This document shows positions 15,875 to 38,794 of a stretch of 64,000 nucleotides of DNA, piece by piece; within the stretch, counting starts at the first letter, position 1; each line of letters starts with the position of its first letter. The stretch is from an uncultured Clostridia bacterium (GTDB taxonomy: Bacteria; Bacillota; Clostridia; RUG12999). The notes beneath the pieces were generated by a model. The model was given only the letters and a program-made list of their open reading frames with translations, was not told the origin of the DNA and did not search any database. The DNA lies in assembly GCA_934792465.1 (NCBI GenBank), contig CAKVOK010000002.1, positions 23,109 through 87,108 of the forward strand, given 5' to 3'. Made by a program: the position numbers and the translations under genes.

Positions 15875-15912
15875 GAGGGTGTAGAAAAACGATTTCGTTT
15901 TGATGCACCCTC
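15875..15912 (+). terminator. Rho-independent terminator (GAGGGTG...AAAACGA-TT-TCGTTTT...CACCCTC) followed by TTTTGGGG
   Basis: The hairpin and T-tract lie immediately 3' of the 14640-15869 gene. The 3' arm is contiguous with the start of the MITE-like repeat. Confidence 0.6.
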
Positions 15913-16176
15913 TTTTGGGGCTTTAGAAAAATAGTGCAGAATGGACAAACTGAGCAAAAGCAAGGCTACGTCCTTGCTTTTGGTACCCGAAGGTGTACAT
16001 AAGTACATCGAGAGGCGAAGGTTGTTCATAGCATAAAGCAATATTTATTTTAGAAATTCGTTCTCGAACGAATTTCAACATCTGTTTTAATTCATTTGGT
16101 GCATTTGGGTGTTCTCTCTTATACTTTGTATCGGTATTTTCTTGCTTTATGCGGTCTGTGCATTTTTATAATGCCT
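15908..16176. repeat. Full-length copy (~270 bp) of the MITE-like interspersed repeat. It contains two perfect 11-bp hairpins: CAAAAGCAAGG-CTACGT-CCTTGCTTTTG and GAAATTCGTTC-TC-GAACGAATTTC.
   Basis: Both ends are shared with 7806-7863 and, in reverse complement, with 33830-33912. The internal palindromes are read directly. No ORF lies inside it. Confidence 0.65.
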
Positions 16177-16217
16177 CGTTTTACACTGTTTTCGGAATAA
16201 CGGTCTTATCCAAAAAG

Positions 16218-16260
16218 GACTACAAGAATTGACTACGCAGAAATATCAATACGCGGCGAT
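16218..16260 (+). promoter_or_regulatory. Conserved upstream cis-element (GACTAC-N7-GACTAC ... CGGCGAT), a candidate activator-binding site. It lies 60 bp upstream of the -35 box.
   Basis: It is near-identical to 26477-26519. Both the internal spacing (36 bp to CGGCGAT) and the distance to the -35 hexamer (60 bp) are identical in the two copies. Confidence 0.5.
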
Positions 16261-16277
16261 TATTCAAGAATGAATTA

Positions 16278-16306
16278 TTGCAAACCAAACGTTCATGAGT
16301 TATAAT
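16278..16306 (+). promoter_or_regulatory. Sigma-A-like promoter TTGCAA-17-TATAAT for the 16375 operon
   Basis: The hexamers and the 17-bp spacer are read directly, ~70 bp upstream of the start codon. Confidence 0.5.
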
Positions 16307-16374
16307 TGAGTTGTCATTAATGCAAGCCAACTCCGCATATGACAAAAAACTAAATTCATGAAAGGAATGGTTTT

Positions 16375-18060
16375 ATGGCAAAGAAAATATTGGCAATGTT
16401 ACTCGGCGCAATGCTTATGTGCAGCGGATTAGCGTCGGCGGAAGAAGTAATCACGGGCGACATCGTAATGGACGAGAGATTCAATTACGGCAGTGCAGCC
16501 GAAATGTACGAGGCTACGGGCGCAAGCCTCTGGGGCGACGGTTCGAGCGTAGACGTGGGCGTGGCAAACGGTGCGCTTATGTTCAAGTCGCTTTCTACGG
16601 GTACGGACGGAATCAAGCTTCCGGTTTCGACGGAAACGGAGAACGAGGGCAAACAAACGATTGAAATGAAAATTAAGCGTTCCGACGCAAATACTTTCTG
16701 GCAGATACAGTTCTTCGGAAAAGAAGCAAACGGAACGGAAAGATATTTCACAATGCTTGACCTCAACAAAAGCGGACTCGTCTGGAAAGACGCAAATATC
16801 GGTTGGGGCGGCGCTCAAACTCTTACGACAATAAAGGGTATGGAGCCGCAGACAACGCTTGGTGTGCTGAATACATATATGAAGATAAAATTGGTTATCG
16901 ATTGGAACACTGATAAGATTAAACTCTTCATCAACGATAACGAACAGGATATTGCACCTTTTGTATTTAACCAGGCGGCAAATGTTGTAAAGGTATCGAG
17001 AATAGACCTTTTGAAACAGTCCGCAAGTGCCGATAATACAGTAACAAGCATAGACAGAATCAGAGTGGTAAACGGCGAAATAAACAATTATACGCCGGAG
17101 TCCGCATACGAGTATAAAGAAGAATTCAGCTATACAAATGTCGAAGATGTATTTGAAAACGGTATCGGAAAAACATCTGCTGTGGATGCCAATATCCCGG
17201 AAAACGATCCGAGTACGCTGTATGTACTTGACGGCAAGGGCAGATTGCAGATAAAGCAAAGTACGGCAAACGGTGAAACCGCACAGACAAACGGTCTGTG
17301 GATACCGGTTTCCGCATCGCAAGCGGACGTAAAATACATTGAGATGAGAATCAAAAGAAGCGGCAAAGCCAAAGCATGGTATAATATGACGGCATACGGA
17401 GTAAATGCGAATGGAGCGAGAAGAGCCGTTACAATGCTTGAACACGTAAACAATAAAAACGGCTTGCAGTGGAAAGGCGAGCCCTGGAGCTGGACAGGCG
17501 GCGGAAACATAAAAACTCTGAAAGACGGCAGAACGGTTGATTCCATTGCACAGTGGACGGTTGTAAAGCTGAAAATCAACTTTGCAAATAAATCGGTAGA
17601 CGGACTCTGGATAGACGGAGAAAAACAGGACACATGCCCGAAATTCTTTACAAGCGATGTAGTAGCGCTTGAGGGAATTACATTCAGCAAACAGGTTTCG
17701 ACATCAAACAACGCATGGGTAGGTATTGATTATATCCGTGTTTGGGACGAGCAGTCTGAAGAAAACAAGCTTGACGTTGAGCTTATGGAGGACAGCGGAA
17801 CATATACGGTAAACGCAGTAATGAACGACCTCGGATATTTCAAATCGAATGTTGTCGTAGCATATTATGACGAGGCCGGCAAGATTATCGGAATAGACAC
17901 AACAAGTCTGGACAAAATGACAACGCTTGACAACGGCATGGTTGTAAAATCAGCTTCATTTACACCAAATCTTGCGAATATTAAAAAAGCAAAGGTAATG
18001 GCAGTTGATTCATTAACAAACTTTGCGCCGATGTGTAATAGTATGGAATTAACAAAATAA
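16375..18060 (+). CDS. Secreted protein with two tandem ConA/LamG-like beta-sandwich domains (KIKRS...FWQ...G..R.F..LD.NKSGL.WK motif) and a C-terminal beta domain
   Basis: It has a signal peptide (MLMCSGLASA). An internal duplication is visible: MKIKRSDANTFWQIQFFGKEANGTERYFTMLDLNKSGLVWK and MRIKRSGKAKAWYNMTAYGVNANGARRAVTMLEHVNNKNGLQWK. The same domain type occurs in the 20749 protein. Confidence 0.5.
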   Translation: MAKKILAMLLGAMLMCSGLASAEEVITGDIVMDERFNYGSAAEMYEATGASLWGDGSSVDVGVANGALMFKSLSTGTDGIKLPVSTETENEGKQTIEMKIKRSDANTFWQIQFFGKEANGTERYFTMLDLNKSGLVWKDANIGWGGAQTLTTIKGMEPQTTLGVLNTYMKIKLVIDWNTDKIKLFINDNEQDIAPFVFNQAANVVKVSRIDLLKQSASADNTVTSIDRIRVVNGEINNYTPESAYEYKEEFSYTNVEDVFENGIGKTSAVDANIPENDPSTLYVLDGKGRLQIKQSTANGETAQTNGLWIPVSASQADVKYIEMRIKRSGKAKAWYNMTAYGVNANGARRAVTMLEHVNNKNGLQWKGEPWSWTGGGNIKTLKDGRTVDSIAQWTVVKLKINFANKSVDGLWIDGEKQDTCPKFFTSDVVALEGITFSKQVSTSNNAWVGIDYIRVWDEQSEENKLDVELMEDSGTYTVNAVMNDLGYFKSNVVVAYYDEAGKIIGIDTTSLDKMTTLDNGMVVKSASFTPNLANIKKAKVMAVDSLTNFAPMCNSMELTK

Positions 18061-18079
18061 GCTATTCAAGGAGAAAAAG

Positions 18080-20722
18080 ATGAAAAAGAACAAACGAGTT
18101 ATTGTCGCATTAACAGCGCTTTTGGTGCTGAACGTCTTTTCGTTCGGCACATATGCGAAAATTACGGATAAAATGACGGCGGATCTGAACGCATACGGTA
18201 TTTTGAAGGACGAACGCTTTGAAGATAAGATTACGAGAGCGGAATTTTCAGCAATGATTGTAAGACTTCTGAAAATCGATACAAGCTCATATCCGATTGA
18301 AAAATCTCCGTTCGTTGACGTGAATGAGGACGATTGGTTTTATAATGAAATTAACATTATGAAAAGCATTAAGATAATCGACGGATATAACAGCACGGAA
18401 TTTCGGCCGTTTGAAGATGTAACATATGAGCAGGCGGTGAAAATTGTCGTATGCGCACTCGGATATAAGGATATTGCCGAGAGTAAAGGCGGTTATCCGG
18501 ACGGGTATATCAGCGTTGCGTCGTCGCTGAATCTGCTGAACGGCGTAGGCAGCGACAGCGGTGTAATGCTCAGAGAAAATGCGGCACGTCTTGTTTATAA
18601 CGCACTTGACGTAAGCCTTATAACGTATGATTATACGGGCGGCATGACGACAGACAGCGACAACACGCTGCGAAAAATCCACGAAACGCTTGCGGACGGC
18701 AGAGAAATCATTGTCAAAAAAGGCGTCATAACGGCAAACTACGAGCTGGGACTCGTGCGCAGTATTCCGAATATAAAAGAAAATCAGGTTGAAATAAACG
18801 GCGAGATTTTCAATGCCGGAGATACGAATGCGGCAGAGCTTGTCGGCATGAAAGTGGAATACCATGCAATAACGGGCGATGATAGCGTGCCGACGCTTTT
18901 AAACGTAAGAGTAACGGACGATAACTCGGTTCTTTCCATCAACGGCAGCGACTTTGACAGAGTAGATGGAAAAACTCTTTATTACACGGAAAACGGAAAA
19001 GACGAAAAGCTTTCGCTTTCCGAAAACAAAATTTATGTAAGAAATTATGATGTCGTTTCGGGATATACCGATAAGGACATAACACTGAAAAACGGCTCTA
19101 TGACGCTTGTGGATAACGACGGAGATGAAAGCTACGATATAATCTTTGTTGAAGAATATGAAAATATAAGAGCGGAAAAATATGAGAACGGCAAAGTGTT
19201 TTTTGCCGAAAACAGAACGTTTGAGGGCAGCACGCTGATTGATATAGACGAGGACAACGATATTAAATATATTCTGCTGGCATCTCAGACGGAAAGCATA
19301 GCCTTGGACAAGGCGGAGGAATATATAAAAGAAAACAGTATATTGAGTATGCTGTTCTCCGCAGATAAAACAGTGCTGAAAATCATTGTTACGAACAAAA
19401 CGGCGGAGGGAAAGATAGAACAGTACAGCGAGGAAGATAATAATATTACGATTGGCGGCGAAACATACGATATGACGGAAAATGTAATATCGGATGCGGC
19501 AATCGGCGATAATGTAACGGCATATCTGGATTTCGGCGGAAAAGTATGCGAGATTAAAAGAACGGAAAACGGCGAAAAGAAATATGCGTATGTTATTGCG
19601 GCAAAAGAGAAAAACGGAATATCGGGCACGATTGAAATAAAGGTGCTTGTTCCGGGAGAGCTTAAAGCGGATATTAAAATAGACGACAGCGATGAGGATA
19701 ATACAACGTCCTTGCCGATACTGAAAGGACATAACAGCGGAATAGAAGTGCTTACGCTCAGGGATAGGGTAAGCTTCGGCGGCAAATCGCTGAAAGGCGA
19801 CAAGCTGATTGAAGCGCTGAATGATAACAGGCTCATAAGATATACTTTGGACAGCAACGGAGAAATTTCAAAAATAGAAATTCCCGAAAGAACGGGTACG
19901 GGCGAACAGCGTACATACAATGCTTATGAGAAAATCTTCGGAAAAACCGGAACGGGAGCATTTGCGATAGATGATAACAGCGTCGGCATATGTCTGCCGA
20001 AAAACGAGATAAATACAGAGGACGATTATTACACCGAGATAGAACTGAACAACGGTGAAAAATACAGCGTTAAAGGATATAATGTCGATGAAAACACGCA
20101 TTGTGCGGAGATTATAGTGCTTACGCTGGAAATGGATTCGAGCATAAAAGAAGCGATTAACGATTCGAGCGACCCGGCAATTGTATGCAAGGTTACAACG
20201 GAGCTGAACGATGAGGAAACGGCGGCGAAAAAAGTCGTGTTCCTGAGCGAGGGAAAAGAAATGACGAAATTCGTAAGCCCCGGTTCGAGTGCGGACAGCG
20301 AGCTTCTGGAAACGGGAACGGTGTTCTATTATGCCGAAAACTTCAAGGGAGATATTGTAGAAGTTAAAACAGTGGAGCATCTTAAAGGCAACAACGGCAT
20401 ATACAGCGAGGGCAGCCCGACTACGGAACAGAAAATACTCGGCGAAATGATAAAGGTAACTCCGAATCAGCTGAGCGACAACGGAAACAGATTCGTATAC
20501 GAGGTATTGCTCAATACGGGTTTGTCGGATTATGAAACGCTTAATATAAATGTAAGAAACACACCGCCGATATTTGTGTATAACGAAAGAACCAACACCG
20601 TAAGATGCGGCACATTGGAGGACATCGTGCCTACATGGAGAGCGTCCGGCAGTGCGGTTTCAAAAATATTTGCGGAGATAAGATATTCAAAGGTGAAAGC
20701 TGTTGTGGTAACGGAGCGGTAA
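18080..20722 (+). CDS. S-layer homology (SLH) domain protein with N-terminal SLH repeats and a large beta-rich extracellular region
   Basis: It has a signal peptide. The SLH repeats near the N-terminus are ITRAEFSAMIVRLL, IIDGYNSTEFRPFEDVTYEQAVKIVVCALGY and GYPDGYISVASSLNLLNG. It is a paralog of the 42611 protein. Confidence 0.65.
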   Translation: MKKNKRVIVALTALLVLNVFSFGTYAKITDKMTADLNAYGILKDERFEDKITRAEFSAMIVRLLKIDTSSYPIEKSPFVDVNEDDWFYNEINIMKSIKIIDGYNSTEFRPFEDVTYEQAVKIVVCALGYKDIAESKGGYPDGYISVASSLNLLNGVGSDSGVMLRENAARLVYNALDVSLITYDYTGGMTTDSDNTLRKIHETLADGREIIVKKGVITANYELGLVRSIPNIKENQVEINGEIFNAGDTNAAELVGMKVEYHAITGDDSVPTLLNVRVTDDNSVLSINGSDFDRVDGKTLYYTENGKDEKLSLSENKIYVRNYDVVSGYTDKDITLKNGSMTLVDNDGDESYDIIFVEEYENIRAEKYENGKVFFAENRTFEGSTLIDIDEDNDIKYILLASQTESIALDKAEEYIKENSILSMLFSADKTVLKIIVTNKTAEGKIEQYSEEDNNITIGGETYDMTENVISDAAIGDNVTAYLDFGGKVCEIKRTENGEKKYAYVIAAKEKNGISGTIEIKVLVPGELKADIKIDDSDEDNTTSLPILKGHNSGIEVLTLRDRVSFGGKSLKGDKLIEALNDNRLIRYTLDSNGEISKIEIPERTGTGEQRTYNAYEKIFGKTGTGAFAIDDNSVGICLPKNEINTEDDYYTEIELNNGEKYSVKGYNVDENTHCAEIIVLTLEMDSSIKEAINDSSDPAIVCKVTTELNDEETAAKKVVFLSEGKEMTKFVSPGSSADSELLETGTVFYYAENFKGDIVEVKTVEHLKGNNGIYSEGSPTTEQKILGEMIKVTPNQLSDNGNRFVYEVLLNTGLSDYETLNINVRNTPPIFVYNERTNTVRCGTLEDIVPTWRASGSAVSKIFAEIRYSKVKAVVVTER

Positions 20723-20748
20723 TACATTGATTGGGGAAAGGAAGAAAA

Positions 20749-23700
20749 ATGATGATAAAAAAATTAGTTTCGGTGTTTTTGATTTCTTGTTTAGCCGTAA
20801 TGCCGTCATTTGCGGAAATTTCCGATGATGTGTATGAAGCGGAAAGCGTGTACGAATCCGAGGACGTTCAACTTTTTGCGGCGGAATCGGCACAGGAACC
20901 TGTCGGCGGATATGTCGTAAATGAAAATTTCGATTATGCAACTCCCGAAGAAATGCTTGACGAAAGCACGGGAATCGGTATGTTTCCGATGATTAACCCG
21001 TATATCGACGATAAATACGGAAGCACGGTAATTACGTTTGAGGACGGAATAATGTCGATGAAGCAGAACAATCCGAACGGAACGTCTTCCGTTACGAACG
21101 GCGTTGTTTTGCCGATACCGAACAAAGAGGGCGACACGACAACGCAGACGGTGGAATTTAAGATAAAAAGAAATTCAAAAACCGCATTTTGGCAGTGTAT
21201 GTTCTACGGATATAATGCCGCAGGCGCAAAGCGTGAGTTCGGTATTCTCGATATGAACAAGAGCGGCCTCGGCTGGAAAGGCACAAACGGCGCATGGGGC
21301 GGCTCGGGAGCGGGCAGCATAACGAAGCTGGACGGAAAAGACAGCAGAAATATAATAAATATTATAAACGAGTGGATTGTTGTAAAAATGGATTTTGATT
21401 TTAAAAACCAGGTTATCACACTCTATATAAACGGTGAAAAGCAATCAAAAGCACCTGTGTTTTATTCGGGTGCGGGCGTTGTTAAGATGTCGAATTTCTG
21501 TATTTTGAAACAAACGGGAAGCACGCACGGAACAATATCCCAGGTTGATTATTTCAGAATGTGGAACAATGAAAGAGAACTTCTGAAACAGGAGCTTGAC
21601 GCAATTTCCGTATCGGAACTTACGGACGAGCATCTTTCGGAGATAACCTCCGACCTGAAACAGCCGCTCATATCGCAGGGTTCTCCTTACGGCGGAAATA
21701 TTACATGGAAATCGAACAAGCCGGAGGTTATTTCAAACGACGGTATTGTTACAAGACAGGAAAATGATGAAAGCGTAATCCTTACGGCAACGGACGAATT
21801 GGGATCGGTTAAGGTGGCGAGAAGCTTTTATTTCAACGTAAAGGGAAATAATTCGGCGGATTTTGACCCGACAGGATATTATCTCGTGTATGAAAACGAT
21901 TTTTCATCGGGAGAAGCGGACACAAGCTGGGCATTGCGTGCAACGGGAAATTCCAAAACAGCTATGGAGGACGGAAAGATTGCGGCAGTTAAAGAATCGC
22001 AATCCAACACGGTAAGCGCAAAGCTTAATATTCTCGGTGCGGAAGATATATACGGCGTATCGGGAAAAGTATATGTATTTGCCGATGTCGGAGCGGAAAA
22101 TATTGCGGATATGGAGATGTCGCTGCTCGACAGCTCGTCCAAAACAATTGCAAAAATATCGTTTGATAAGCTCGGCTGTTTTGCGGCGGCGGGAACGTAT
22201 CTTTCGGGCGGTACGGAGCAGTATTCCGGCTCATATCCATATCCGAACGGAGATTATGTAAAGGTGAGATTTGAGGCAGACCCCGTAGCCGGAAGCTTTA
22301 AGCTTCGGATAAACAATATCCCGGTTACGATAGACGGAGATGATATGCTGCCGAATATAAACCAGACAACGAATATACAGTCCGTGCTTTTCAGAATAAA
22401 TTCGGGAACCGAATATCCGGCAAAAATGACAGTGGACAACGTAAAGGTGTATATTCCCGATGAAAAAAGAATGGAAATGGCGAAAAACAGGGTTGTTTTC
22501 GACGCTATAAGAATGGCAAACAGCAAAGAAAGCCATATAACGGGCGATTTGAATTTGTTCACGGATAAGTATCTCGGTACGGATATATCTTGGGAATCGG
22601 ACAAACCGAATATAATCTCGGCGGACGGCAAGGTAAACCGCCCGACAGACGCAGCGGCGGATGTGACGCTGACGGCAGTAATCAGTATGGGCGAACAAAA
22701 GGAAAACGTGGTATTTAATCTTAAGGTTATGAAAGACGACCCGTATAATTATGCTTTTGAAAGAAAGGTAACGTCAAATCTTTCGGCACAGCAAGGCAGC
22801 AGCATAAATTATATCAACGATGGTGATACGGAAACGAAATACATAACGGTTGCAGCGGGAAAATCAATGAATATCCTTGTCGATATGGACGGAATGTATA
22901 ATATCAACAGACTTATAATTCCGGGCGGACTTGATACGATAACGGGATATAAAATAGAGGTTTCCGAAAACAATTCCGAATATACGGAGGTTGCGTCCGG
23001 CGAGAAGCTTGAAAAAACAACGGCATTTAAACTTGTAAAGGCAAAATATTTAAGACTTACGGTAGAAAAAGAAAGCGGCGTTTCGGTCGAAATTCCCGAA
23101 CTGGAAATAAGAACCGAATTTACGGACGAAGAAGCGGCAGACGCAGACCTTGAAGCGTTTGCGCCGAATCTGCCGAAAAGTACAACGGAAAATATTACTT
23201 TGCCAACAGAGGGACAATACGGCAGCACGATAACCTGGACTTCGAGCAAGCCCGATGTTATTTCGCCGGCAGGTATTGTGAACAGGGGAAGCGAAACGGT
23301 TACGGTTATCCTGACGGCGGAAATCAGAAAAGGCAGCATTGCAAAAACAAAAACGTATCAGGTATCTGTAACGGGAAAACAGACGTCATCGTCCGGCGGC
23401 GGTGGCGGCGGAGGAGGAAAATCTTCCGCAAAGTCAAGTTCATACATACCGGTTATATCCGTTGAAAATCCTCCGGCGGAGGAAGTAATATTCAGCGATT
23501 TGGCAGGTGCGGAATGGGCGAAAGAATATATAATCGCACTTTATAACAAGGGAGCGGTAAACGGATACGGAAACAAAACGTTTGCGCCGTTTAACAATGT
23601 AACCCGCGAGGAATTTGTGAAAATACTTATCATCGCATTTGATATAGCACCGCAGACTGCGGAAATAAGCTTCGGTGACTGCGAAAAAGGAATGTGGTAT

Positions 23701-24027
23701 GCAGACTATATAGAAACAGGCGTTAAAACAGGTATTGTAAACGGAATGAGCGACAGCCGTTTCGGCATCGGCGAATACATAACACGTGAAGATATAATCA
23801 CGCTTACCGCCCGTGCGCTCGAATATAAGGGCATAGCGAATACGGGTGCGGATACTGCGCCTCCGGATATGGCAGATGTCAGCGCATACGCTCAAAATGC
23901 GGTGCGTATGCTTATGGGATATGATATAGTAAACGGAGATACGAATGGAAAAATCAATCCGAAAAGCTTCGCAACAAGAGCCGAAACCGCTAAGATAATC
24001 GGAAAGGCAGCGGCACTTATAAAATAA
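20749..24027 (+). CDS. Large secreted multidomain surface protein. Its domains, in order: ConA/LamG-like, three Ig-like (Big) repeats, F5/8 type C (discoidin) carbohydrate-binding domain, poly-Gly linker, three C-terminal SLH repeats.
   Basis: It has a signal peptide. The KIKRNSKTAFWQ...LDMNKSGLGWKG domain is shared with the 16375 protein. Three ITW.S.KP.VIS..G.V.R repeats follow. The discoidin motif is INDGDTETKY...YNINRLII...YKIEVSENNSEYTEV. The linker is SSSGGGGGGGGKSS. The three SLH repeats are FSDLAGAEWAKEYIIALYNKGAVNGYGNKTFAP...TREEF, ...GMSDSRFG...ITRED and ...GKINPKSFATRAE. I place the start at ATG 20749, after a GGAAAGGAAG RBS. Confidence 0.7.
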   Translation: MMIKKLVSVFLISCLAVMPSFAEISDDVYEAESVYESEDVQLFAAESAQEPVGGYVVNENFDYATPEEMLDESTGIGMFPMINPYIDDKYGSTVITFEDGIMSMKQNNPNGTSSVTNGVVLPIPNKEGDTTTQTVEFKIKRNSKTAFWQCMFYGYNAAGAKREFGILDMNKSGLGWKGTNGAWGGSGAGSITKLDGKDSRNIINIINEWIVVKMDFDFKNQVITLYINGEKQSKAPVFYSGAGVVKMSNFCILKQTGSTHGTISQVDYFRMWNNERELLKQELDAISVSELTDEHLSEITSDLKQPLISQGSPYGGNITWKSNKPEVISNDGIVTRQENDESVILTATDELGSVKVARSFYFNVKGNNSADFDPTGYYLVYENDFSSGEADTSWALRATGNSKTAMEDGKIAAVKESQSNTVSAKLNILGAEDIYGVSGKVYVFADVGAENIADMEMSLLDSSSKTIAKISFDKLGCFAAAGTYLSGGTEQYSGSYPYPNGDYVKVRFEADPVAGSFKLRINNIPVTIDGDDMLPNINQTTNIQSVLFRINSGTEYPAKMTVDNVKVYIPDEKRMEMAKNRVVFDAIRMANSKESHITGDLNLFTDKYLGTDISWESDKPNIISADGKVNRPTDAAADVTLTAVISMGEQKENVVFNLKVMKDDPYNYAFERKVTSNLSAQQGSSINYINDGDTETKYITVAAGKSMNILVDMDGMYNINRLIIPGGLDTITGYKIEVSENNSEYTEVASGEKLEKTTAFKLVKAKYLRLTVEKESGVSVEIPELEIRTEFTDEEAADADLEAFAPNLPKSTTENITLPTEGQYGSTITWTSSKPDVISPAGIVNRGSETVTVILTAEIRKGSIAKTKTYQVSVTGKQTSSSGGGGGGGGKSSAKSSSYIPVISVENPPAEEVIFSDLAGAEWAKEYIIALYNKGAVNGYGNKTFAPFNNVTREEFVKILIIAFDIAPQTAEISFGDCEKGMWYADYIETGVKTGIVNGMSDSRFGIGEYITREDIITLTARALEYKGIANTGADTAPPDMADVSAYAQNAVRMLMGYDIVNGDTNGKINPKSFATRAETAKIIGKAAALIK

Positions 24028-24033
24028 TCTGAA

Positions 24034-24080
24034 AAAACCGTCCGATAAAAGACGAAATTATCGACTTATCGGGCGGTTTG
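24034..24080 (+). terminator. Rho-independent terminator (AAACCGTCCGATAA ... TTATCGGGCGGTTT)
   Basis: The inverted repeat lies directly 3' of the 20749-24027 gene. Confidence 0.5.
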
Positions 24081-24089
24081 AACTTAATA

Positions 24090-24118
24090 TTGATTTTTTG
24101 CGCGAAATATGTTATACT
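24090..24118 (+). promoter_or_regulatory. Sigma-A-like promoter TTGATT-17-TATACT for the AraC-type sensor gene
   Basis: The hexamers are read directly, ~30 bp upstream of ATG 24150. Confidence 0.45.
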
Positions 24119-24149
24119 ATATGTATCATAAATCAAAAGGGAGAAGAAA

Positions 24150-26378
24150 ATGAATATCAAGGATTTTGTCACCAATAAAAAATTATTTTTAAAATACTGT
24201 ACGATGATATTTGTTTCGCTTTTTATAACTATTATATTCAGTTCCGCAGTTATAAACAAAACAAGAAGCTTTGCCGAAGAACAGATAAAGAACAACGGCT
24301 ATCAGTCGCTGAAACAGGTTCAGATTGCGCTCGACAGAGAAATTGTAAATATAAGGAAAACAGCAATGTCGGTGACGAGAAACAAGGAGCTTTCCGCATA
24401 TGTGTATAACTCTGACGATATTAACAGCATATACAGACTTTCCGAATTGGTTGACATGACGAATTTCAGGGATTTGGTAGGCGATTTCGTGCTGTTCGGA
24501 TATATTTATATGAAAGACAGTGACCTGATAATCTGCGAAAAGGGAAAATTCACTCCCAAGGAATTTTATGCATACCTCGGCTGTGAGGACGAAACATACC
24601 AGGAATGGTACAGGAAGATTAACGGAAAATATTACAATACGTATACCGAACCGATAAACATTACGCTTGCGGACGCATACGAGAGCAACAAGGTTGTGCC
24701 GTATTTCCAGTCGTTTCCGCTTAGGTCGTTTGAAAAAGGAAATCTTGTTATTTTTCTTGATTACAATAAGATAAATCAGATTTACGGCAGCAGATATTCG
24801 GACGGGAAAAATGCGCTTTTTGTGTTGGACAAGAACAACAAAGTCGTTTTCTCGTTTGGCGATGAATCGAAATTTGATAAAAGCTACAGTGACTTTGATG
24901 AAAAATATACTTCCGTAGGAAGAGATCTCATGGTGTTCAAAAGGGACTCACAGCTCAGCGACGTTACGTATATTTCCGTGGAAGAAAAAAGCTTTATAAG
25001 GGAACAGTTGAAGGGTGTTACGAGGGCGATATATTTGTATATACTGGTCGTTATTCTGATTTGCATTACGATTCCGGTGATAATAGCGCACAAGTTCACA
25101 TCGCCGGTGGTCGGCATATACAGGATGCTCAAAGGCAACAATATAAAAGAGCCGGACAGTATAGCCGAGGTTGTAAATTCCGTCAAGAAATTTATCGAGG
25201 AAAAGGATTCGGCGGAAATATCGTATAAGAAGCAGAAAGCGCAGTTTGCGGAGCAATCTCTGACAAACGCCGTTATAGGATTGCTGGAGGATTTCGTATG
25301 CGACGACGAGGGCAGAGAGTGTCTTGAAAAATATTTCACAAATAAATATATCAGAGTTATCACGGCGGAATTGGCGGATATTCAGACGAATGAGGATTGT
25401 GCGCTTTTGAGATATGCCGTGAAGAATGTCGGCACGGAGGTGCTTGAAAAAAATTCGGCGGTGTATGCGCTTGATTACGGCTGGAACAAGGTTATTTTTA
25501 TAATAAATTACGATAAAGACAATGCCGAAACGATTATGACGGAGTGCGAATATATCTCGGACGTATTTGCGGACGAATTCGGAGTTACTCTGAATATGGG
25601 AATCGGTAAAATGACGGACGATATTCAGAATATGTCAACGTCTTTTGCATCATCGGGAGAAATGCTCGAAGGACTTAATCTCAGCGGTGAACGCATAGGA
25701 ATATACGAGAACCGCCGCCGCAACGAAAGTATATATTATTTCACGGCGGAGCATGAAAACATGATTTTAAAGGCACTTGTAAATTCGGACAGCGAGAGCG
25801 CTTCGGAGGTAATAAACAAGGCGGTCGAGCTGCATAAGACGTCATCGCCGGATATTATAAAATGCTTGCATTTTCATCTTATAGCGACTGTGCTGAAGCT
25901 TGTAAACGATGAAAAGCTCGGACTTTCCGAAACGGAGCTGGAAAACCTCGGAATCGAACGGCTTTTCACTTGCGAAAAGATAACCGATCTGACGAACGAG
26001 ATAAACAGTGTGTTTGCGAAAATATGCTCTGCGGTGAAAGAACAGGGCAACAGCAAAAAAGATGTGTTTAAAACGCTTGTGATGGGATTTGTGGACGAGC
26101 ATTACGGCGACAACGGAATGAGCCTTGATATGGTAGCTTCGGCGTTCAATGTACACCCGACATATATATCGCATTTCTTCAAGGATACGGTGCGGAAGAA
26201 TTTTACAGAGTATGTAACGGAAAAGAGAATCAGCCGTGCGTGCGAGCTTCTCGAAACGGGAGCGACGCTCAACGATATTGCGATTTCGGTGGGATATGCG
26301 AACAGCACGGTACTTGTGAAGAAATTTAAAAAGGTCATGGGAGTTACGCCCGGAGAATACAGAAAATCAATCAAGTGA
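24150..26378 (+). CDS. Transmembrane one-component regulator. Its domains, in order: N-terminal TM, extracytoplasmic sensor domain, second TM, cytoplasmic linker, C-terminal AraC-family HTH. It is YesN-like but has no receiver domain.
   Basis: The first TM helix is IFVSLFITIIFSSAV. The second TM helix, at about residue 290, is AIYLYILVVILICITIPVIIA. The C-terminal AraC HTH_18 signature is VASAFNVHPTYISHFFKD....F..Y....R...A..LL..T...LNDIAISVGYANSTVLVKKFKKVMGVTPGEYR. No HisKA or receiver motif is present. Confidence 0.75.
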   Translation: MNIKDFVTNKKLFLKYCTMIFVSLFITIIFSSAVINKTRSFAEEQIKNNGYQSLKQVQIALDREIVNIRKTAMSVTRNKELSAYVYNSDDINSIYRLSELVDMTNFRDLVGDFVLFGYIYMKDSDLIICEKGKFTPKEFYAYLGCEDETYQEWYRKINGKYYNTYTEPINITLADAYESNKVVPYFQSFPLRSFEKGNLVIFLDYNKINQIYGSRYSDGKNALFVLDKNNKVVFSFGDESKFDKSYSDFDEKYTSVGRDLMVFKRDSQLSDVTYISVEEKSFIREQLKGVTRAIYLYILVVILICITIPVIIAHKFTSPVVGIYRMLKGNNIKEPDSIAEVVNSVKKFIEEKDSAEISYKKQKAQFAEQSLTNAVIGLLEDFVCDDEGRECLEKYFTNKYIRVITAELADIQTNEDCALLRYAVKNVGTEVLEKNSAVYALDYGWNKVIFIINYDKDNAETIMTECEYISDVFADEFGVTLNMGIGKMTDDIQNMSTSFASSGEMLEGLNLSGERIGIYENRRRNESIYYFTAEHENMILKALVNSDSESASEVINKAVELHKTSSPDIIKCLHFHLIATVLKLVNDEKLGLSETELENLGIERLFTCEKITDLTNEINSVFAKICSAVKEQGNSKKDVFKTLVMGFVDEHYGDNGMSLDMVASAFNVHPTYISHFFKDTVRKNFTEYVTEKRISRACELLETGATLNDIAISVGYANSTVLVKKFKKVMGVTPGEYRKSIK

Positions 26379-26420
26379 CTTTATAAAAATGCACAGGACG
26401 CATAAAACAAAAAAGTTTTT

Positions 26421-26464
26421 AAAGAAGTTGCAGTAAAATGAAATCATTTTGCCGCAACTTCTTT
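26421..26464 (+). terminator. Long imperfect hairpin of the AAAATGAAA family (AAAGAAGTTGC..TAAAATGA-AA-TCATTTTG..GCAACTTCTTT), a candidate terminator or attenuator
   Basis: It is read directly. Related hairpins lie at 33934-33968 and 38670-38707. Confidence 0.45.
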
Positions 26465-26476
26465 GCATATAAAACA

Positions 26477-26519
26477 GACTACAAAAATTGACTATGAAAA
26501 AACAGCAATATACGGCGAT
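26477..26519 (+). promoter_or_regulatory. Second copy of the conserved upstream cis-element (GACTAC-N7-GACTAT ... CGGCGAT), 60 bp upstream of the -35 box
   Basis: It is near-identical to 16218-16260 with the same spacing to the promoter. It lies immediately downstream of the AraC-type sensor regulator gene. Confidence 0.5.
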
Positions 26520-26536
26520 AAAGCAAAAGCGGATTA

Positions 26537-26565
26537 TTGATTTTTTGCCGAAAAAAAGGTATAAT
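26537..26565 (+). promoter_or_regulatory. Sigma-A-like promoter TTGATT-17-TATAAT for the 26617 operon
   Basis: The consensus hexamers and the 17-bp spacing are read directly. Confidence 0.55.
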
Positions 26566-26616
26566 GTAGATATGTGCAGCAAGGCACGTATGAAAAAGAT
26601 TTCGGAGGACGATGGA

Positions 26617-29600
26617 ATGAAGAAAATATCAGCAATATTTTTGACAGTATGCATTTTGTGTACGAGCGTATACGCAGCGGAAAACGGCGGTACGGAACAG
26701 ATGTCGGCGGACGGAGGTTACAGTTACAATTTTGTTGACCCCGACTGGATGAGCGACGAGGATTTTTTCGGAGTATATGACAAGGAACAGGGGATTTTTA
26801 CAAATCCGGGCAAATTAAATTACGACGGATTTTCGGGACTTGCCGCTGTCAAAGAGCTTGTTGAAGCGGGAGATTACGAGGGTGCTAAGGAAGAATACAA
26901 GGCATATTACGTAAAAAAGAAAGAAAATCTTAATCTGTTTATAAATTCGACGTCCAAGACGGACGTCATAGTCAGCAGAATGTATGAAAACCAGGTGATG
27001 TACAATCCGCTCTCCGCAACGCTTGTCGATACGGTTAAATTCACAAATGCGGAAACAACAGCCTCAATGGACGTGACAAGCGATGTCAAAAGCATAATGG
27101 GAGCGAGCGACAAAAGGTCGATTTTTCAGCTGGTGGCATTGAAAAAAGACGGCAGCAGCGCAGAGATATATTCGAGAAGCGCAGCGGCGGGCAAACGCCC
27201 CGTAATTGAAGTTACGATAAACGGTATTTTGAACAGAATCGAACCGTACGGCGATACATATATCTGCGGCGGAGAAAACGAAAACATGAACTACGGCAAC
27301 GAAGAAATGCTGAGAGTGGAGGAAAGCGTAACATCAATTCAGCCGGAGGGCGCATGGGAAACCGGCATAAACGATGCCGGAAACGATATAAATACAAACG
27401 GCGTAACCGACAGATTCGACGATGCGGAAACGAAAAGAACATATTTGATGTTTGATTTCAGCTCGCTTAGTTCTGCGGATATAACAAGTGCAGTGCTGAA
27501 GCTGACGGGAAAGAACGCAGGCGGTACGGGCGAAATGGAAATTCTGTGTTTCAGAAATGCCGATACCGCAATTGAGGAAGATACCGTTACATGGTGCAAA
27601 AAAGGAAGCTTCGCAAATGAACATTATGTGTTCAATTCCTATGGATTCAAAGACCCTGACGGAATAGAAACCATATTTTATGCCAAGCCTTACGGAATGA
27701 TAAACAGATATTACGGCGATGTCGGACGTTTCGAAGGGTCGCAGCTGTCGCCTGTCAAGATGTTCAGCGAAACCGGCAACGAGTATTACGGATACGTTGC
27801 CTGCAAGATGTTCGGCGATTATGTTAAGATGAGGGGCGGAAAATACGATGACAGCTATACATCGCTCTGTGCGGCGTGCCGATTGCTGTATATGCCGAAT
27901 CTTATAATGAAGATAATAACAAGCAAGCATATGTCCGCAGAACTTTTCACGGCACTTATGAAAAATCTGTGGCTCAATGCGAACTATATGCAATATACTT
28001 TCAGACCCGGAACAAACTGGGGTTCGTTCCAGATGTCCGGACTCTTCACAACGGGTGCGTATTTCAACGAATTTTCGGATTATTATAACTGGGTTGAAAA
28101 GCCGGACAGTCCGAACGGAGATACGGAAGCGGTATCGCTGAAATATATTCAGAGTGCGGCATACAGAATGTATTTGCTGTCGCAGAATACGATAATAGAC
28201 GAGGATTACAGCTCTACGGAAAAATCCGTGGGATACTGCGCAACGAATATGAATATGTTTTTGAATCCGCTGACCGTTACGGATGTTACGGGGGTTACGT
28301 TCCCGTATAATGACGAAACGATGAAACGTGTCGTAGGCTGCCTTACATATTTCAGGGACTTGCTCGGGCCGGGAGGATATGACATTCAGTGGGGAAACTC
28401 CGGTTCGCATAACGTGAATATGAAATATGTAATAGATAATTTCCTGAAATATTATAATGTTCCGTCGCTGAAATGGTATACGACAAACGGCAAGGAGGGC
28501 ACGGCACCGGAATATACTTCGGTTTTGTATCCGGGTGCGAAAGTTGCGATAATGAAAAGCGGCTGGGACGACAATGCGGCATATCTTCATACGTCTTATG
28601 ATGTGGCAGGCGTTCATGCGCATGATGATGACTTGTCACCGATAATATTCGCAAAAGGAAAATATCTGCTTTCCGACCAAAGCTACAGCGGTTATGCGCT
28701 CGACGCTACGGCGCAGAACTGGCTCATAAGTGCGGAAGCGCATAACGTAATAAAAATAAACGAGAAATTTCCGAACAACACATCGGAGCTGAACGACTGG
28801 GTTACGAACGACGGGTTCGATTTGTTTGCGGCGACAAAAACGAATAATGAGGTCAGCTTCAAAAGAAATATCTTTTTTGTTCGTCCGAATTACTGGATTG
28901 TGACGGATTATCTCGTGCCGAACGATAAGGAAACGGAGAACACATACAGACAGATGTGGCATATGCCGCCGGACGCAAAGCTTGATATAATCGATGAAAC
29001 TTCAAATAAGGCGAAAAGCGCTTATGACTATGTGAATTTGAGTATAATTCCGGTAGGAGGAGATAAGCTCGAAGCGGATATACGAGAAGGCTATTACGGT
29101 ACGGGCAGTACGACGGATATGTCTATGGAAAACTACGTCAATTACATTAAAAATGAAAAAGGTACGGTTACGTACAATACCATACTCCGCCCGGAAATAC
29201 CGGATGAAAAGCTGAACGTAAATACAACGGAAATAGAAATGCCCGATGTAACGGAAAACGGAGCGTCCGCATTCAGCATGGATATAAGCTCAAACGGAAA
29301 AACGAGCGAGGCAACATATTATATTTTAAATGATGAATTGCAAAAGGGCAAGCGAGATGTCGGCAGCTATAATTTCGACGGAAAGGTTTTCTATGCCGAA
29401 AAATCAAGCGGCGGCGAATTTAAGAATATAAACCTTTATAAGGGTAAGGAGCTTAAAGAAAAAGGGAAAACCGTTATAAAGACGGGAGCACCCTCGGAGA
29501 TTAACGATTTGTCGGTAAGCTATGACGGCAGCGTAATGAATATAAGAAGCTCGGAATCGAAAGAAGATATAGGGCTTGATACGATAACGCTGCTTGCGGG

Positions 29601-30393
29601 GGATAAGACGGAAAAGGTGAAATTCAACGATGAGGAAATCAGCTTTTCCAGAACAAAAAATTACATATATTTCGGAGCAAAACCGATTGTTGACGATGAA
29701 GAATACACAAAACCGGATAATAACACCGGAGGCGGTTCGGGAAGCTCGCACGGCGGCAGCTCCGGCGGCAAGACCTCGTCTTCCGGTCCGACCGGCGGCA
29801 GCAGCGGCAGCAGCGGCACTGTAACGCCGATAAAACCGGCAATATCGGAAGCAATGAAAAAAGAGCTTGAAAATCATTGGGCGAAAGACGAAATTATACC
29901 GCTTATAAACAATAAAATCGTCGGCGGAGACGAAAACGGCAGGCTGAATCTTGACGATACGATAACAAGAGCGGAATTTACCGCAATGCTTGTGCGTGCG
30001 TTTAAGCTTGAGGGGCAAAGCGATAAGACGTATAAAGACGTCAGCGGCGGCGATTGGTTCGCACCGTATGTCGGAGCGGCTTCCGCAGAAAATATTATAA
30101 ACGGATATGACGACGGAACGTTCGGACCGGATAAACCCGTTACACGGGAAGAAATGGCGAAAATTACGGTGAGCATATTTAAGAAATATAAGGAAATTCC
30201 GGAAGCGGACACGCAGAAATATGCGGACGACGCCGATATTTCGGACTGGGCAAACAAGTATGTGTATGAAGCCTGCCGGGCGGAAATAATGAACGGCACG
30301 GAAAGCGGCAGCTTCAATCCGAAGAAAGAAGCACTGCGCTGTGAAGCCATGGCGACGGTTTCAAGACTTCTTAACAAGACAAAAGGAGAATAA
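26617..30393 (+). CDS. SLH-anchored polysaccharide lyase of the heparinase II/III-like superfamily. Its domains, in order: N-terminal beta domains (one DNRLRE-like), (alpha/alpha)-toroid region, Hepar_II_III beta-sandwich, Gly/Ser linker, three SLH repeats.
   Basis: It has a signal peptide (FLTVCILCTSVYA). The heparinase II/III signature is GVHAHDDDLSPIIFAKGKYLLSDQSYSGY (H-x-H-x-D-x-L-S), followed by FFVRPNYWIVTDYL...YRQMWHMP. The YLMFDFSSLSSADITSAVLKL segment resembles the DNRLRE/CBM-like pattern. The linker is GGGSGSSHGGSSGGKTSSSGPTGGSSGSSG. The C-terminal SLH repeats carry ITRAEFTAMLVRAF, INGYDDGTFGPDKPVTREEMAKI and MNGTESGSFNPKKEALRCEAMATVSRLL. I place the start at ATG 26617, after a GGAGGA RBS. 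Confidence 0.7.
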   Translation: MKKISAIFLTVCILCTSVYAAENGGTEQMSADGGYSYNFVDPDWMSDEDFFGVYDKEQGIFTNPGKLNYDGFSGLAAVKELVEAGDYEGAKEEYKAYYVKKKENLNLFINSTSKTDVIVSRMYENQVMYNPLSATLVDTVKFTNAETTASMDVTSDVKSIMGASDKRSIFQLVALKKDGSSAEIYSRSAAAGKRPVIEVTINGILNRIEPYGDTYICGGENENMNYGNEEMLRVEESVTSIQPEGAWETGINDAGNDINTNGVTDRFDDAETKRTYLMFDFSSLSSADITSAVLKLTGKNAGGTGEMEILCFRNADTAIEEDTVTWCKKGSFANEHYVFNSYGFKDPDGIETIFYAKPYGMINRYYGDVGRFEGSQLSPVKMFSETGNEYYGYVACKMFGDYVKMRGGKYDDSYTSLCAACRLLYMPNLIMKIITSKHMSAELFTALMKNLWLNANYMQYTFRPGTNWGSFQMSGLFTTGAYFNEFSDYYNWVEKPDSPNGDTEAVSLKYIQSAAYRMYLLSQNTIIDEDYSSTEKSVGYCATNMNMFLNPLTVTDVTGVTFPYNDETMKRVVGCLTYFRDLLGPGGYDIQWGNSGSHNVNMKYVIDNFLKYYNVPSLKWYTTNGKEGTAPEYTSVLYPGAKVAIMKSGWDDNAAYLHTSYDVAGVHAHDDDLSPIIFAKGKYLLSDQSYSGYALDATAQNWLISAEAHNVIKINEKFPNNTSELNDWVTNDGFDLFAATKTNNEVSFKRNIFFVRPNYWIVTDYLVPNDKETENTYRQMWHMPPDAKLDIIDETSNKAKSAYDYVNLSIIPVGGDKLEADIREGYYGTGSTTDMSMENYVNYIKNEKGTVTYNTILRPEIPDEKLNVNTTEIEMPDVTENGASAFSMDISSNGKTSEATYYILNDELQKGKRDVGSYNFDGKVFYAEKSSGGEFKNINLYKGKELKEKGKTVIKTGAPSEINDLSVSYDGSVMNIRSSESKEDIGLDTITLLAGDKTEKVKFNDEEISFSRTKNYIYFGAKPIVDDEEYTKPDNNTGGGSGSSHGGSSGGKTSSSGPTGGSSGSSGTVTPIKPAISEAMKKELENHWAKDEIIPLINNKIVGGDENGRLNLDDTITRAEFTAMLVRAFKLEGQSDKTYKDVSGGDWFAPYVGAASAENIINGYDDGTFGPDKPVTREEMAKITVSIFKKYKEIPEADTQKYADDADISDWANKYVYEACRAEIMNGTESGSFNPKKEALRCEAMATVSRLLNKTKGE

Positions 30394-30394
30394 A

Positions 30395-31321: not shown

Positions 31322-31341
31322 AAAGGAGTTTTATCATAATA

Positions 31342-32223: not shown

Positions 32224-32251
32224 AAATATATTAAAAAAAGGAGAGGTTAAA

Positions 32252-33912: not shown

Positions 33913-33933
33913 CCACCCACCAAAAAAATACAG

Positions 33934-33968: not shown

Positions 33969-33990
33969 TTTATAAAAGAAAGGTAAAATC

Positions 33991-38707: not shown

Positions 38708-38794
38708 TTTGTGTTTGCATACACGTACATAATAAAAAAGCCCATTTTAAAGACTTTTTTATTATGTGCGTGTATGCTGAATAAATATTGTATG

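What the first reader, a model, noticed from the sequence alone, without database searches (positions are those of the whole stretch)
16218..26565. A ~45-nt cis-element is positioned identically upstream of two promoters
GACTAC-N7-GACTA(C/T)...CAATA..CGGCGAT occurs at 16218-16260 and 26477-26519. In both copies the first GACTAC lies exactly 36 bp before CGGCGAT. In both it lies exactly 60 bp before a near-consensus -35 hexamer (TTGCAA-17-TATAAT and TTGATT-17-TATAAT).

The two regions are otherwise unrelated, so the conservation and the fixed phasing argue for a functional activator site around -95/-60. AraC-family regulators typically bind direct repeats just upstream of the -35 box. The transmembrane AraC-type sensor gene (24150-26378) lies between the two copies and ends ~100 bp before the second copy.
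Basis: seen in the sequence. Interest (0 to 1): 0.65.

Follow-up and report, generated by a model that had tools for sequence, protein, structure and literature searches.

The report
Shared upstream operator of two sugar-operon promoters
Two promoters on either side of a membrane-anchored AraC-type sensor gene carry the same ~70-base upstream sequence, most likely the site where that sensor switches on a polysaccharide-degradation gene cluster; this is an ordinary kind of local gene switch, seen here in a poorly sampled bacterium.

Summary
GACTAC-N7-GACTAY, CAATA-N2-CGGCGAT and a -35/17/-10 promoter sit in identical register at 16218 and 26477. The two regions align without gaps over 69 nt (16212-16280 vs 26471-26539; score 35, shuffles 10.5±1.2), and 63 of 95 positions match through the -10.

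A profile of the module finds only these two sites in 64 kb. They head two operons of one polysaccharide-utilisation locus. Between them lies a 742-aa gene for a protein with two TM segments, a weak dCache match and an AraC DNA-binding domain.

A divergent natural allele of the second promoter keeps the module at 89% identity. Its upstream intergenic DNA is unalignable (45%) and the neighbouring lyase gene is 84-87% identical. The regulator's recognition helices are identical in that allele.

The best reading is an activator operator for the adjacent AraC sensor. Binding is inferred, not shown.

Caveats:
- There are only two sites and two lineages.
- The hexamer repeat is not significant within a single sequence.
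- The 36/60 spacing becomes 35/59 in the other allele.
- The "CGGCGAT" core is really GGCGAT.
- Public genome and metagenome scans gave only chance hits.

This is a new member of a known kind, of modest interest.

The parts
16212..16280 (+). Upstream module of promoter P1, about -101 to -33. It holds GACTAC 16218-16223, GACTAC 16231-16236, CAATAC-G-CGGCGAT 16247-16260 and ATTATTG 16274-16280.
   Evidence: ungapped alignment to 26471-26539, score 35 vs shuffles 10.5±1.2. (nhmmer E 4.8e-21).
16278..16306 (+). Core promoter P1: TTGCAA, 17-nt spacer, TATAAT. The inferred transcription start is near 16313.
   Evidence: 10 of 12 matches. Conserved in L003, L004 and L005.
16375..24027 (+). Operon 1, three secreted or cell-surface proteins: a 561-aa protein of unknown family, an 880-aa SLH protein, and a 1098-aa protein with aBig_2, F5/8 type C, LamG-like and SLH domains.
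   Evidence: signal peptides.
24090..24118 (+). The regulator gene's own promoter: TTGATT, 17-nt spacer, TATACT. It follows a hairpin after operon 1 and has no GACTAC module. Its core resembles the P2 core.
24150..26378 (+). Membrane-anchored one-component regulator of 742 aa. TM segments lie at about residues 17-35 and 290-312, around an extracytoplasmic region with a weak, below-cutoff dCache match. The AraC/XylS DNA-binding domain is C-terminal (residues about 640-742).
   Evidence: HTH_18 at 8e-19, HTH_AraC, dCache_1 weak. (hydropathy)..
26421..26465 (+). Long-stem terminator hairpin after the regulator gene. It belongs to a repeated terminator family and is replaced by a different hairpin in allele B.
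   Evidence: (family D3).
26471..26539 (+). Upstream module of promoter P2. It holds GACTAC 26477-26482, GACTAT 26490-26495, CAATAT-A-CGGCGAT 26506-26519 and ATTATTG 26533-26539.
   Evidence: (E 4.2e-20). Conserved in L001 and L003.
26537..26565 (+). Core promoter P2: TTGATT, 17-nt spacer, TATAAT. The inferred transcription start is near 26572.
   Evidence: 10 of 12 matches. Both hexamers are conserved in allele B.
26617..33817 (+). Operon 2: a polysaccharide lyase (CBM96, heparinase II/III-like, SLH), two ABC permeases and a 521-aa protein placed like a solute-binding lipoprotein. GH88 (33991-35091) and GH95 (35169-37463) follow, after a repeat element and a hairpin.

Best explanation
The two copies are the upstream operator of two co-regulated promoters, P1 and P2, in one Gram-positive polysaccharide-utilisation locus.

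The 742-aa regulator encoded between them has two TM segments, a weak dCache-like extracytoplasmic region and a C-terminal AraC DNA-binding domain. Proposed mechanism (inferred):
1. The extracytoplasmic domain senses a breakdown product of the target glycan.
2. The AraC-type DNA-binding domains, probably as a dimer or higher oligomer, occupy the module from about -95 to about -35.
3. This activates sigma-A-type transcription of the surface-protein operon (16375-24027) and the lyase/ABC-importer operon (26617 onward).

The regulator gene has its own promoter without the module, so it is probably expressed independently of the signal.

Shown here:
- the sequence identity, its register and its statistical significance
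- that the module occurs only at these two sites in the window
- the above-background conservation of the module between alleles
- the regulator's domain architecture.

Inferred:
- that the regulator binds the module
- that it activates rather than represses
- the transcription start sites
- the ligand.
For: - Identical register and a 69-nt ungapped match, score 35 against 10.5±1.2 in shuffles.
- A sequence profile finds only these two sites in the window. The next hits have E above 0.1 and lie in coding DNA. Looser hexamer matches are at chance level and all fall in ORFs.
- Both sites sit upstream of 10-of-12 promoters that head operons of one locus, and the regulator gene lies between them.
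- Allele comparison at P2, window vs L003:
  - upstream intergenic DNA 45% identical
  - whole module 89% (repeat block 25/27, GGCGAT-to-(-35) block 36/39)
  - promoter spacer 71%
  - 5' UTR 73%
  - lyase coding sequence 84-87%
- The DNA-binding domain is 95-100% identical and both recognition helices are identical across alleles. By BLAST identity the whole protein is 89% and the gene 81% at nucleotide level; DBD.
- L003 is a natural mosaic. It combines an AraC gene that is window-like up to about position 26190 with an allele-B P2. The conserved blocks are what the two promoter versions share.
- These are the only two transcription-factor genes in the window. The second AraC (48957) is only 24% identical.
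- Precedent: local AraC-type regulators of carbohydrate loci in Caldicellulosiruptor have tandem-repeat sites upstream of mapped promoters (PMC8579813). Membrane-tethered AraC-type HTCS regulators of Bacteroides have direct-repeat sites at PUL promoters (PMC3878776).
Against: - There is no binding or expression evidence.
- Only two sites and effectively two lineages are available.
- At P1 the whole 360-nt region is about 98% identical among strains. Three of the six substitutions fall inside the 43-nt motif, so P1 shows no extra constraint.
- The GACTAC repeat is not significant within one sequence.
- Its 13-bp period differs from the ~21-bp period of classical AraC/XylS and HTCS tandem sites.
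- Both promoters have a consensus -10 and a 4-of-6 -35. They may not strictly need an activator.
- A 1-nt deletion in allele B changes the spacing between the repeats and the -35.
- The similarity runs through the core promoter and into the start of the signal-peptide coding sequence. Part of it therefore reflects duplication of a promoter cassette rather than selection on a binding site.
Confidence: 0.55

Rival explanations
1. The module is a real regulatory site, but a different factor binds it. Candidates are an unlinked or global regulator encoded outside the window, or a response regulator that recognises short direct repeats. On this view the nearby AraC gene is a coincidence, or it acts elsewhere.
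For: - The 13-bp hexamer period and the far-upstream position (-95/-82) are not the textbook AraC geometry.
- No binding data exist.
- Only 64 kb of the genome is visible.
- The regulator's own promoter lacks the site.
Against: - No other transcription-factor gene is in the window apart from a 24%-identical AraC embedded in the second locus.
- The site occurs only at the two operons that flank this regulator.
- Local control by the adjacent regulator is the rule for such loci (PMC8579813, PMC3878776).
- The DNA-binding domain and the site are conserved together across alleles.
Confidence: 0.2
2. The similarity is only a leftover of a duplicated promoter cassette. One promoter was copied to the other position and is decaying, and the shared upstream bases are not recognised by any specific factor.
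For: - The ungapped alignment covers the whole promoter (63/95) and the first codons.
- The AraC gene's own core promoter also resembles the P2 core.
- The genome reuses intergenic modules such as terminators and a repeat element with inverted ends.
- At P1, recent substitutions are concentrated in the motif.
Against: - Conservation between P1 and P2 is blocky: 17/19, 6/10, 12/14, 5/10, 8/10, then 5/17 in the spacer. Neutral decay would be uniform.
- Between alleles of P2, the module (89%) is better kept than the adjacent coding DNA (84-87%). It is far better kept than the upstream intergenic DNA (45%).
- Duplication and function are not mutually exclusive.
Confidence: 0.15
3. The motif belongs to a mobile or repeated intergenic element, or it is a chance match.
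For: A repeat element with inverted ends lies just upstream of both copies: 15916-16179 on the + strand, and its right-end box at 26381-26404 on the - strand.
Against: - Other copies of that element (7811-7866, 33831-33915, 37488) carry no GACTAC module.
- Allele B of P2 lacks the 26381 box but keeps the module.
- The shuffle statistics exclude chance.
- In-frame coding of the region as an N-terminal extension of the lyase is excluded by frame-shifting indels in L002 and L003.
Confidence: 0.04

Closest known systems
Local AraC-family activators of carbohydrate-utilisation loci in Clostridia, such as PecR, HemR, AxuRS and XylQ of Caldicellulosiruptor bescii (PMC8579813)
   Same: The regulator gene sits in the locus it controls. 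The sites are repeats located upstream of promoter elements, which implies activation. The regulons are small and local, with CUT1-type ABC importers and CAZymes as targets.
   Different: Those sites are described as tandem repeats with large spacers. Here the clearest repeat is a hexamer with a 13-bp period, inside a 69-nt conserved block that also reaches the -35. This regulator is membrane-anchored with an extracytoplasmic sensor. None of those regulators is an orthologue.
Bacillus subtilis YesS/RhgR (PMC2788870, PMC3870299), a rhamnogalacturonan-locus AraC-family activator. Its length (~760 aa) and membrane anchoring with a C-terminal AraC domain are from my own knowledge, not checked here.
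   Same: From my own knowledge of YesS: similar length and overall architecture, and placement next to LplABC-type ABC importer genes. Shown in the cited papers: it is a transcriptional activator of a pectin/rhamnogalacturonan locus.
   Different: No sequence comparison with YesS was run here. The word-indexed search for AraC homologues found only two close relatives and one at 23% identity. The substrate genes differ (heparinase-II/III-like lyase, GH88, GH95). I did not retrieve a YesS operator to compare with.
[quoted passage not shown]
   Same: [quoted passage not shown] Direct-repeat motifs lie upstream of several operons of the same polysaccharide locus. One such regulon, HTCS_Hep, controls heparin lyase genes.
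   Different: HTCS proteins carry histidine-kinase and receiver domains and work by phosphorelay. This protein has neither in Pfam. HTCS motifs are two 12-16-bp sites with a period of about 21 bp. The phylum and the promoter type also differ.
Classical AraC/XylS operators: AraC I1-I2, XylS at Pm, and the MarA marbox (textbook knowledge)
   Same: A 'box, N6-7, box' layout within a ~19-bp site resembles GACTAC-N7-GACTAY. The promoter-proximal conserved block abuts the -35, as at class II AraC-type promoters.
   Different: In the classical sites the two boxes differ, because the two helix-turn-helix motifs differ, and the tandem sites repeat every ~21 bp next to the -35. Here the two boxes are identical and lie at -95 and -82.

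Membership tests
AraC/XylS-family transcription factor (protein 24150-26378) | A C-terminal ~100-aa DNA-binding domain with two helix-turn-helix motifs (Pfam HTH_18 / HTH_AraC) | tested here: met
   HTH_18 at 8.2e-19 (68 bits, cutoff 33.6) and HTH_AraC at 2.4e-10; the same region matches many AraC-family NCBIfam models.
Membrane-anchored one-component AraC sensor (YesS-like architecture) | Two transmembrane segments that flank an extracytoplasmic sensor domain, with no kinase or receiver domains | tested here: met
   hydropathy peaks at residues about 11-35 and 286-320; the dCache_1 match over residues 43-255 is weak (23 bits, below the cutoff of 45). No HisKA, HATPase or Response_reg hit.
Membrane-anchored one-component AraC sensor (YesS-like architecture) | Orthology to B. 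subtilis YesS/RhgR | not tested
   No YesS sequence was compared. Homologue searches returned only P0001, P0002 and a 23%-identical JGI protein.
AraC-type activator operator | A repeated recognition sequence located upstream of, or abutting, the -35 of the regulated promoter | tested here: met
   hexamer repeats 60 and 47 nt upstream of the -35. The conserved GRATTATTG block overlaps the -35.
AraC-type activator operator | Tandem half-sites of ~17 bp with a period of about 21 bp | tested here: not met
   no consistent 20-22-bp self-similarity. The only clear repeat has a 13-bp period. A weak 42-bp-shift similarity (CAAGAAT..GAWTTAT) is not significant.
AraC-type activator operator | Specific binding by the cognate regulator and regulator-dependent transcription | not testable with these tools
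   This needs EMSA or footprinting, reporter assays, and a deletion mutant.
Functional cis-regulatory element in general | Conserved above the neutral background in orthologous regions | tested here: inconclusive
   Met at P2: module 89% against 45% upstream and 84-87% in coding DNA. Not met at P1: the whole region is about 98% identical and 3 of 6 changes fall in the motif. Only two lineages are available.
Mobile or repeated intergenic element (MITE/REP-like) | The motif is contained within the boundaries of a multi-copy element and travels with it | tested here: not met
   the nearby inverted-end element has other copies without the module. The module has exactly two copies, both at promoters.

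The most novel reading that the evidence does not exclude
The module could be the first defined operator of a membrane-anchored dCache-AraC one-component sensor in Gram-positive polysaccharide loci. Its architecture would be non-canonical: identical hexamers (GACTAY) at a 13-bp period at -95/-82, a GGCGAT box at about -55, and a degenerate GAWTAT abutting the -35. Several DNA-binding domains of a membrane-tethered oligomer would then coat about 65 bp, instead of using the classical 21-bp tandem half-sites.
Probability: 0.15. Interest if true: 0.45.

Novelty: new member of a known kind. Interest (0 to 1): 0.3.

Why it matters
If the prediction holds, it gives a concrete and testable operator for one member of the large family of membrane-anchored AraC sensors. 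This family accompanies ABC-importer polysaccharide loci in Firmicutes and is, to my knowledge, almost uncharacterised. The prediction is a 69-nt module with defined invariant positions.

It would also define a two-operon regulon: a cell-surface glycan-binding apparatus plus a lyase and an importer. The natural allele swap in L003 already points to the bases that matter.

Beyond this lineage the value is limited. The motif was not found in 185,579 reference genomes or in JGI metagenomes. The principle of a local AraC activator with a repeat upstream of the promoter is well established.

Tried and rejected
1. Related loci in reference genomes, queried with the AraC protein: no relative found.
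2. Motif scan GACTAC-N7-GACTAY-N18-GGCGAT in genome contigs and metagenome contigs: 6 and 11 hits. All are in unrelated, mostly GC-rich organisms, with no similarity outside the fixed bases, so they are chance matches.
3. Homologue searches with the full AraC protein and with its sensor part alone: only the same-species protein, an 89% relative, and one protein at 23%. Deeper phylogenetic footprinting was therefore impossible.
4. The locus of the 23% homologue (L023) was inspected for a comparable two-promoter motif. Nothing interpretable was found.
5. Rfam scan of the window: no RNA family, so there is no riboswitch or sRNA explanation from known families.
6. Search for a 21-bp periodic sub-structure or a significant internal repeat: none. 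Even the hexamer repeat is within the shuffle range for a single sequence.
7. Looser hexamer-repeat matches (2 mismatches): 11 found against 7.3 expected, and the nine extra ones all lie in coding DNA.
8. Coding explanation. The ORF caller extends the lyase ORF to 26488 across the motif. This is rejected because L002 has a 2-nt deletion and L003 a 1-nt deletion in that stretch.
9. Membership of the adjacent inverted-end repeat element: rejected.
10. Other regulators in the window: none besides the second AraC. The 976-1854 ORF is a tyrosine recombinase.
Full report
**1. Observation**

| Element | First copy | Second copy |
|---|---|---|
| Hexamer 1 | GACTAC 16218-16223 | GACTAC 26477-26482 |
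| Hexamer 2 | GACTAC 16231-16236 | GACTAT 26490-26495 |
| CAATAY | CAATAC 16247-16252 | CAATAT 26506-26511 |
| CGGCGAT | 16254-16260 | 26513-26519 |
| -35 hexamer | TTGCAA 16278-16283 | TTGATT 26537-26542 |
| -10 hexamer (17-nt spacer) | TATAAT 16301-16306 | TATAAT 26560-26565 |

The offsets of 36 nt (first hexamer to CGGCGAT) and 60 nt (first hexamer to -35) are exact in both copies. The promoter scan lists both promoters at 10 of 12 consensus positions.

The bare pattern GACTAYN7GACTAY is only weakly surprising: 2 matches against 0.35 expected, and 5 of 100 shuffles reach 2.

- An ungapped alignment of 69 nt (16212-16280 vs 26471-26539) scores 35. Shuffles give 10.5±1.2, maximum 15.
- In the same register, 63 of 95 positions match from upstream of the first hexamer through the -10.
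- MAFFT even aligns the first codons of the two signal peptides.

So the statement that the regions are otherwise unrelated is not correct. The shared unit is a promoter module of about 70-95 nt. It is not a 45-nt island in unrelated sequence.

**2. Context**

All genes run on the + strand.

- P1 heads three genes for secreted or cell-surface proteins (16375-24027). They are a 561-aa protein of unknown family, an 880-aa SLH protein, and a 1098-aa protein with aBig_2, F5/8 type C, LamG-like and SLH domains.
- P2 heads a polysaccharide lyase (CBM96, heparinase II/III-like, SLH), two ABC permeases and a 521-aa protein placed like a solute-binding protein. GH88 and GH95 genes follow.
- Between the two operons lies a 742-aa gene (24150-26378).
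  - Its product has hydrophobic segments at residues about 17-35 and 290-312.
  - The region between them gives a weak, below-cutoff dCache match.
  - A clear AraC/XylS DNA-binding domain sits at the C-terminus.
- That gene has its own promoter (TTGATT, 17 nt, TATACT, 24090-24118) behind a hairpin and without the module.
- The only other transcription-factor gene in the window is a second AraC of the same architecture (48957-51170). It sits inside a second polysaccharide locus and is 24% identical over its C-terminal half.

**3. Is the module specific to these promoters?**

- A profile HMM built from the five available module sequences finds only the two sites in 64 kb (E 5e-21 and 4e-20). The next hits have E above 0.1 and lie in coding DNA.
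- Hexamer-repeat matches with two mismatches are at chance frequency and all fall in ORFs.
- The window does contain other repeated intergenic modules.
  - One is a family of long-stem terminators.
  - The other is a hairpin-forming element with inverted ends GGGGCTTTAGAAAAA...TTTTTATAATGCCCC.
  - Copies of that element lie just upstream of both GACTAC modules.
- Other copies of the element (7811-7866, 33831-33915, 37488) have no GACTAC module.
- The second allele of P2 lacks the element's box but keeps the module.

**4. Comparative evidence**

The organism is poorly sampled. The AraC protein has only a 100% match and an 89% relative in 5.8 billion proteins, plus one protein at 23%. It has no relative in the reference-genome collection.

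Contigs from ENA and Logan give two informative comparisons.

*(a) L003 is a mosaic.* Its nucleotide identity to the window changes along the locus.

| Window interval | Identity to L003 |
|---|---|
| about 17800-26190 | about 99% |
| 26191-26468 | 77% |
| beyond 26469 (lyase gene) | 81-86% |

Beyond the breakpoint L003 resembles the L001 lineage. At P2 the two alleles compare as follows.

| Segment | Identity |
|---|---|
| Intergenic DNA upstream of the module (different terminators) | 45% |
| Whole module | 89% |
| Hexamer-repeat block | 25/27 |
| GGCGAT to -35 block | 36/39 |
| Promoter spacer | 71% |
| -10 hexamer | 6/6 |
| 5' UTR | 73% |
| Lyase coding sequence | 84-87% |

The regulator's DNA-binding domain is 95-100% identical, and both recognition helices are identical. 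By BLAST identity the whole protein is 89% and the gene 81% at nucleotide level. This pattern is expected for a protein-binding site that is maintained together with its binding domain.

Allele B also has a 1-nt deletion between the second hexamer and GGCGAT. The 'exact' 36/60 spacing is therefore 35/59 there.

*(b) At P1 the whole 360 nt upstream of the start codon is about 98% identical among strains.* That comparison says little. Three of the six window-vs-L004 differences fall inside the 43-nt motif:
- the sixth base of the second hexamer (C/T)
- a base two positions after that hexamer
- the base before GGCGAT.

These are positions that also differ between P1 and P2. They mark tolerant positions and reduce the invariant core to GACTAC-AANAATT-GACTAY ... 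AATA ... GGCGAT ... ATTATTG.

**5. Mechanism**

The best-supported reading is a local activator operator. The membrane-anchored AraC sensor, expressed from its own promoter, would bind the module at about -95 to -35 of P1 and P2 when its extracytoplasmic domain detects a product of the target glycan. It would then activate both operons.

Activation rather than repression is inferred from two things: the position upstream of the core promoter, and the family's usual behaviour.

- In Caldicellulosiruptor, AraC-type local regulators of carbohydrate loci have tandem-repeat sites upstream of mapped promoters (PMC8579813).
- Bacteroides membrane-tethered HTCS regulators with AraC-type domains have direct-repeat sites at several operons of one PUL (PMC3878776).

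How the domains sit on the DNA is unresolved.

- The layout 'hexamer, N7, hexamer' resembles the 'box, N6-7, box' layout of single AraC/XylS/MarA sites (textbook knowledge). Here, however, the two boxes are identical and 13 bp apart.
- No 21-bp periodicity is detectable.
- A degenerate third hexamer (AATTAT in P1, GATTAT in P2) abuts the -35, 42 bp downstream of the second hexamer. This is suggestive but not statistically supported.

**6. Rivals**

- *A different, unlinked regulator binds the site.* This cannot be excluded with 64 kb of sequence.
- *A duplicated promoter cassette with no specific binding site.* The full-length alignment favours it, as does the similarity of the regulator's own core promoter to the P2 core. 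Two results argue against it as the sole explanation: the blocky conservation between P1 and P2 (17/19, 6/10, 12/14, 5/10, 8/10, then 5/17) and the allele comparison.
- *Chance, a mobile element, or coding sequence.* These are effectively excluded.

**7. Comparison with the known, and verdict**

The protein passes the tests for the AraC/XylS family and for a membrane-anchored one-component architecture. Orthology to B. subtilis YesS was not tested.

The DNA element meets the positional criterion of an AraC-type activator site. It fails the classical 21-bp tandem half-site criterion. Binding cannot be tested here.

Scans of public genomes and metagenomes gave only chance hits. The motif is therefore lineage-specific as far as can be seen.

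This is a plausible, testable, local operator: a new member of a well-known kind of system, in an uncultured SLH-bearing bacterium. The bacterium is presumably a Firmicute, inferred from its SLH proteins, 43% G+C and sigma-A-like promoters. Interest is modest at 0.3.

My probability that the module is a functional shared cis-element is about 0.75. That figure combines the best explanation with the different-regulator rival. My probability that the adjacent AraC sensor is its binder is about 0.55.

Noticed in passing
window 7811-7866 (+), 15916-16179 (+), 33831-33915 (-), 37488-37525 (+, left end only), 26381-26404 (-, right end only): A family of intergenic elements with inverted ends GGGGCTTTAGAAAAA...TTTTTATAATGCCCC. 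The 55-nt minimal copy folds as a DNA hairpin (z = -3.9). The 260-nt copy carries extra internal hairpins, including the perfect palindrome GAAATTCGTTC-TC-GAACGAATTTC near 16067. The family looks MITE- or REP-like and usually sits just after a terminator. There is no Rfam match.
   Followed up: partly
window 7770-7811, 15875-15916, 26421-26465, 33934-33970, 38671-38711: Long-stem terminator hairpins share a conserved inner stem and loop (GCRGYAAAATGAAATCATTTTGC) but have different outer stems. The terminators themselves therefore form a repeat family.
   Followed up: partly
window ~7931-7960: A perfect direct repeat, GCAAGTTATG-N10-GCAAGTTATG (20-bp period), lies upstream of a promoter-like sequence that precedes the LemA gene (8015-8629). 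It may be the site of another regulator.
   Followed up: no
window 38718-38779: A 19-nt inverted repeat (GCATACACGTACATAATAA ... TTATTATGTGCGTGTATGC, about 24-nt spacer) lies upstream of the first gene of the second polysaccharide locus (38874). It could be an operator or a hairpin, possibly related to the second AraC sensor (48957-51170).
   Followed up: no
L003 vs window 17200-17800 and 26190 onward: The related metagenomic contig L003 is a mosaic of ~99%-identical and 77-86%-identical segments. One breakpoint lies inside the 3' end of the AraC gene. This is evidence of homologous recombination shuffling alleles of this surface-protein and lyase locus within the population.
   Followed up: partly
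window 24085-24126 vs 26531-26573: The core promoter of the AraC gene (ATATTGATTTTTTGC...TATACT) is clearly similar to the core of P2 (score 19). It lacks the upstream module, which suggests that promoter cassettes have been reused within the locus.
   Followed up: partly
window 12261-14618 and 14640-15869; L003 8929-9678: Two adjacent SLH-protein genes share 77-79% identical 3' parts with a 1251-nt spacing, so they are tandem paralogues. In L003 this region is rearranged to a single 249-aa SLH gene, whose end reads into the sequence that is intergenic in the window (from about 16004).
   Followed up: no
window 15990-16010 vs L004 3385-3405: A small hairpin inside the long repeat-element copy differs between strains by changes that keep the pairing: TGTAC-ATAA-GTACA in the window and CGTAT-GTGT-ATACG in L004. 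This hints that the structure, not the sequence, is maintained.
   Followed up: no
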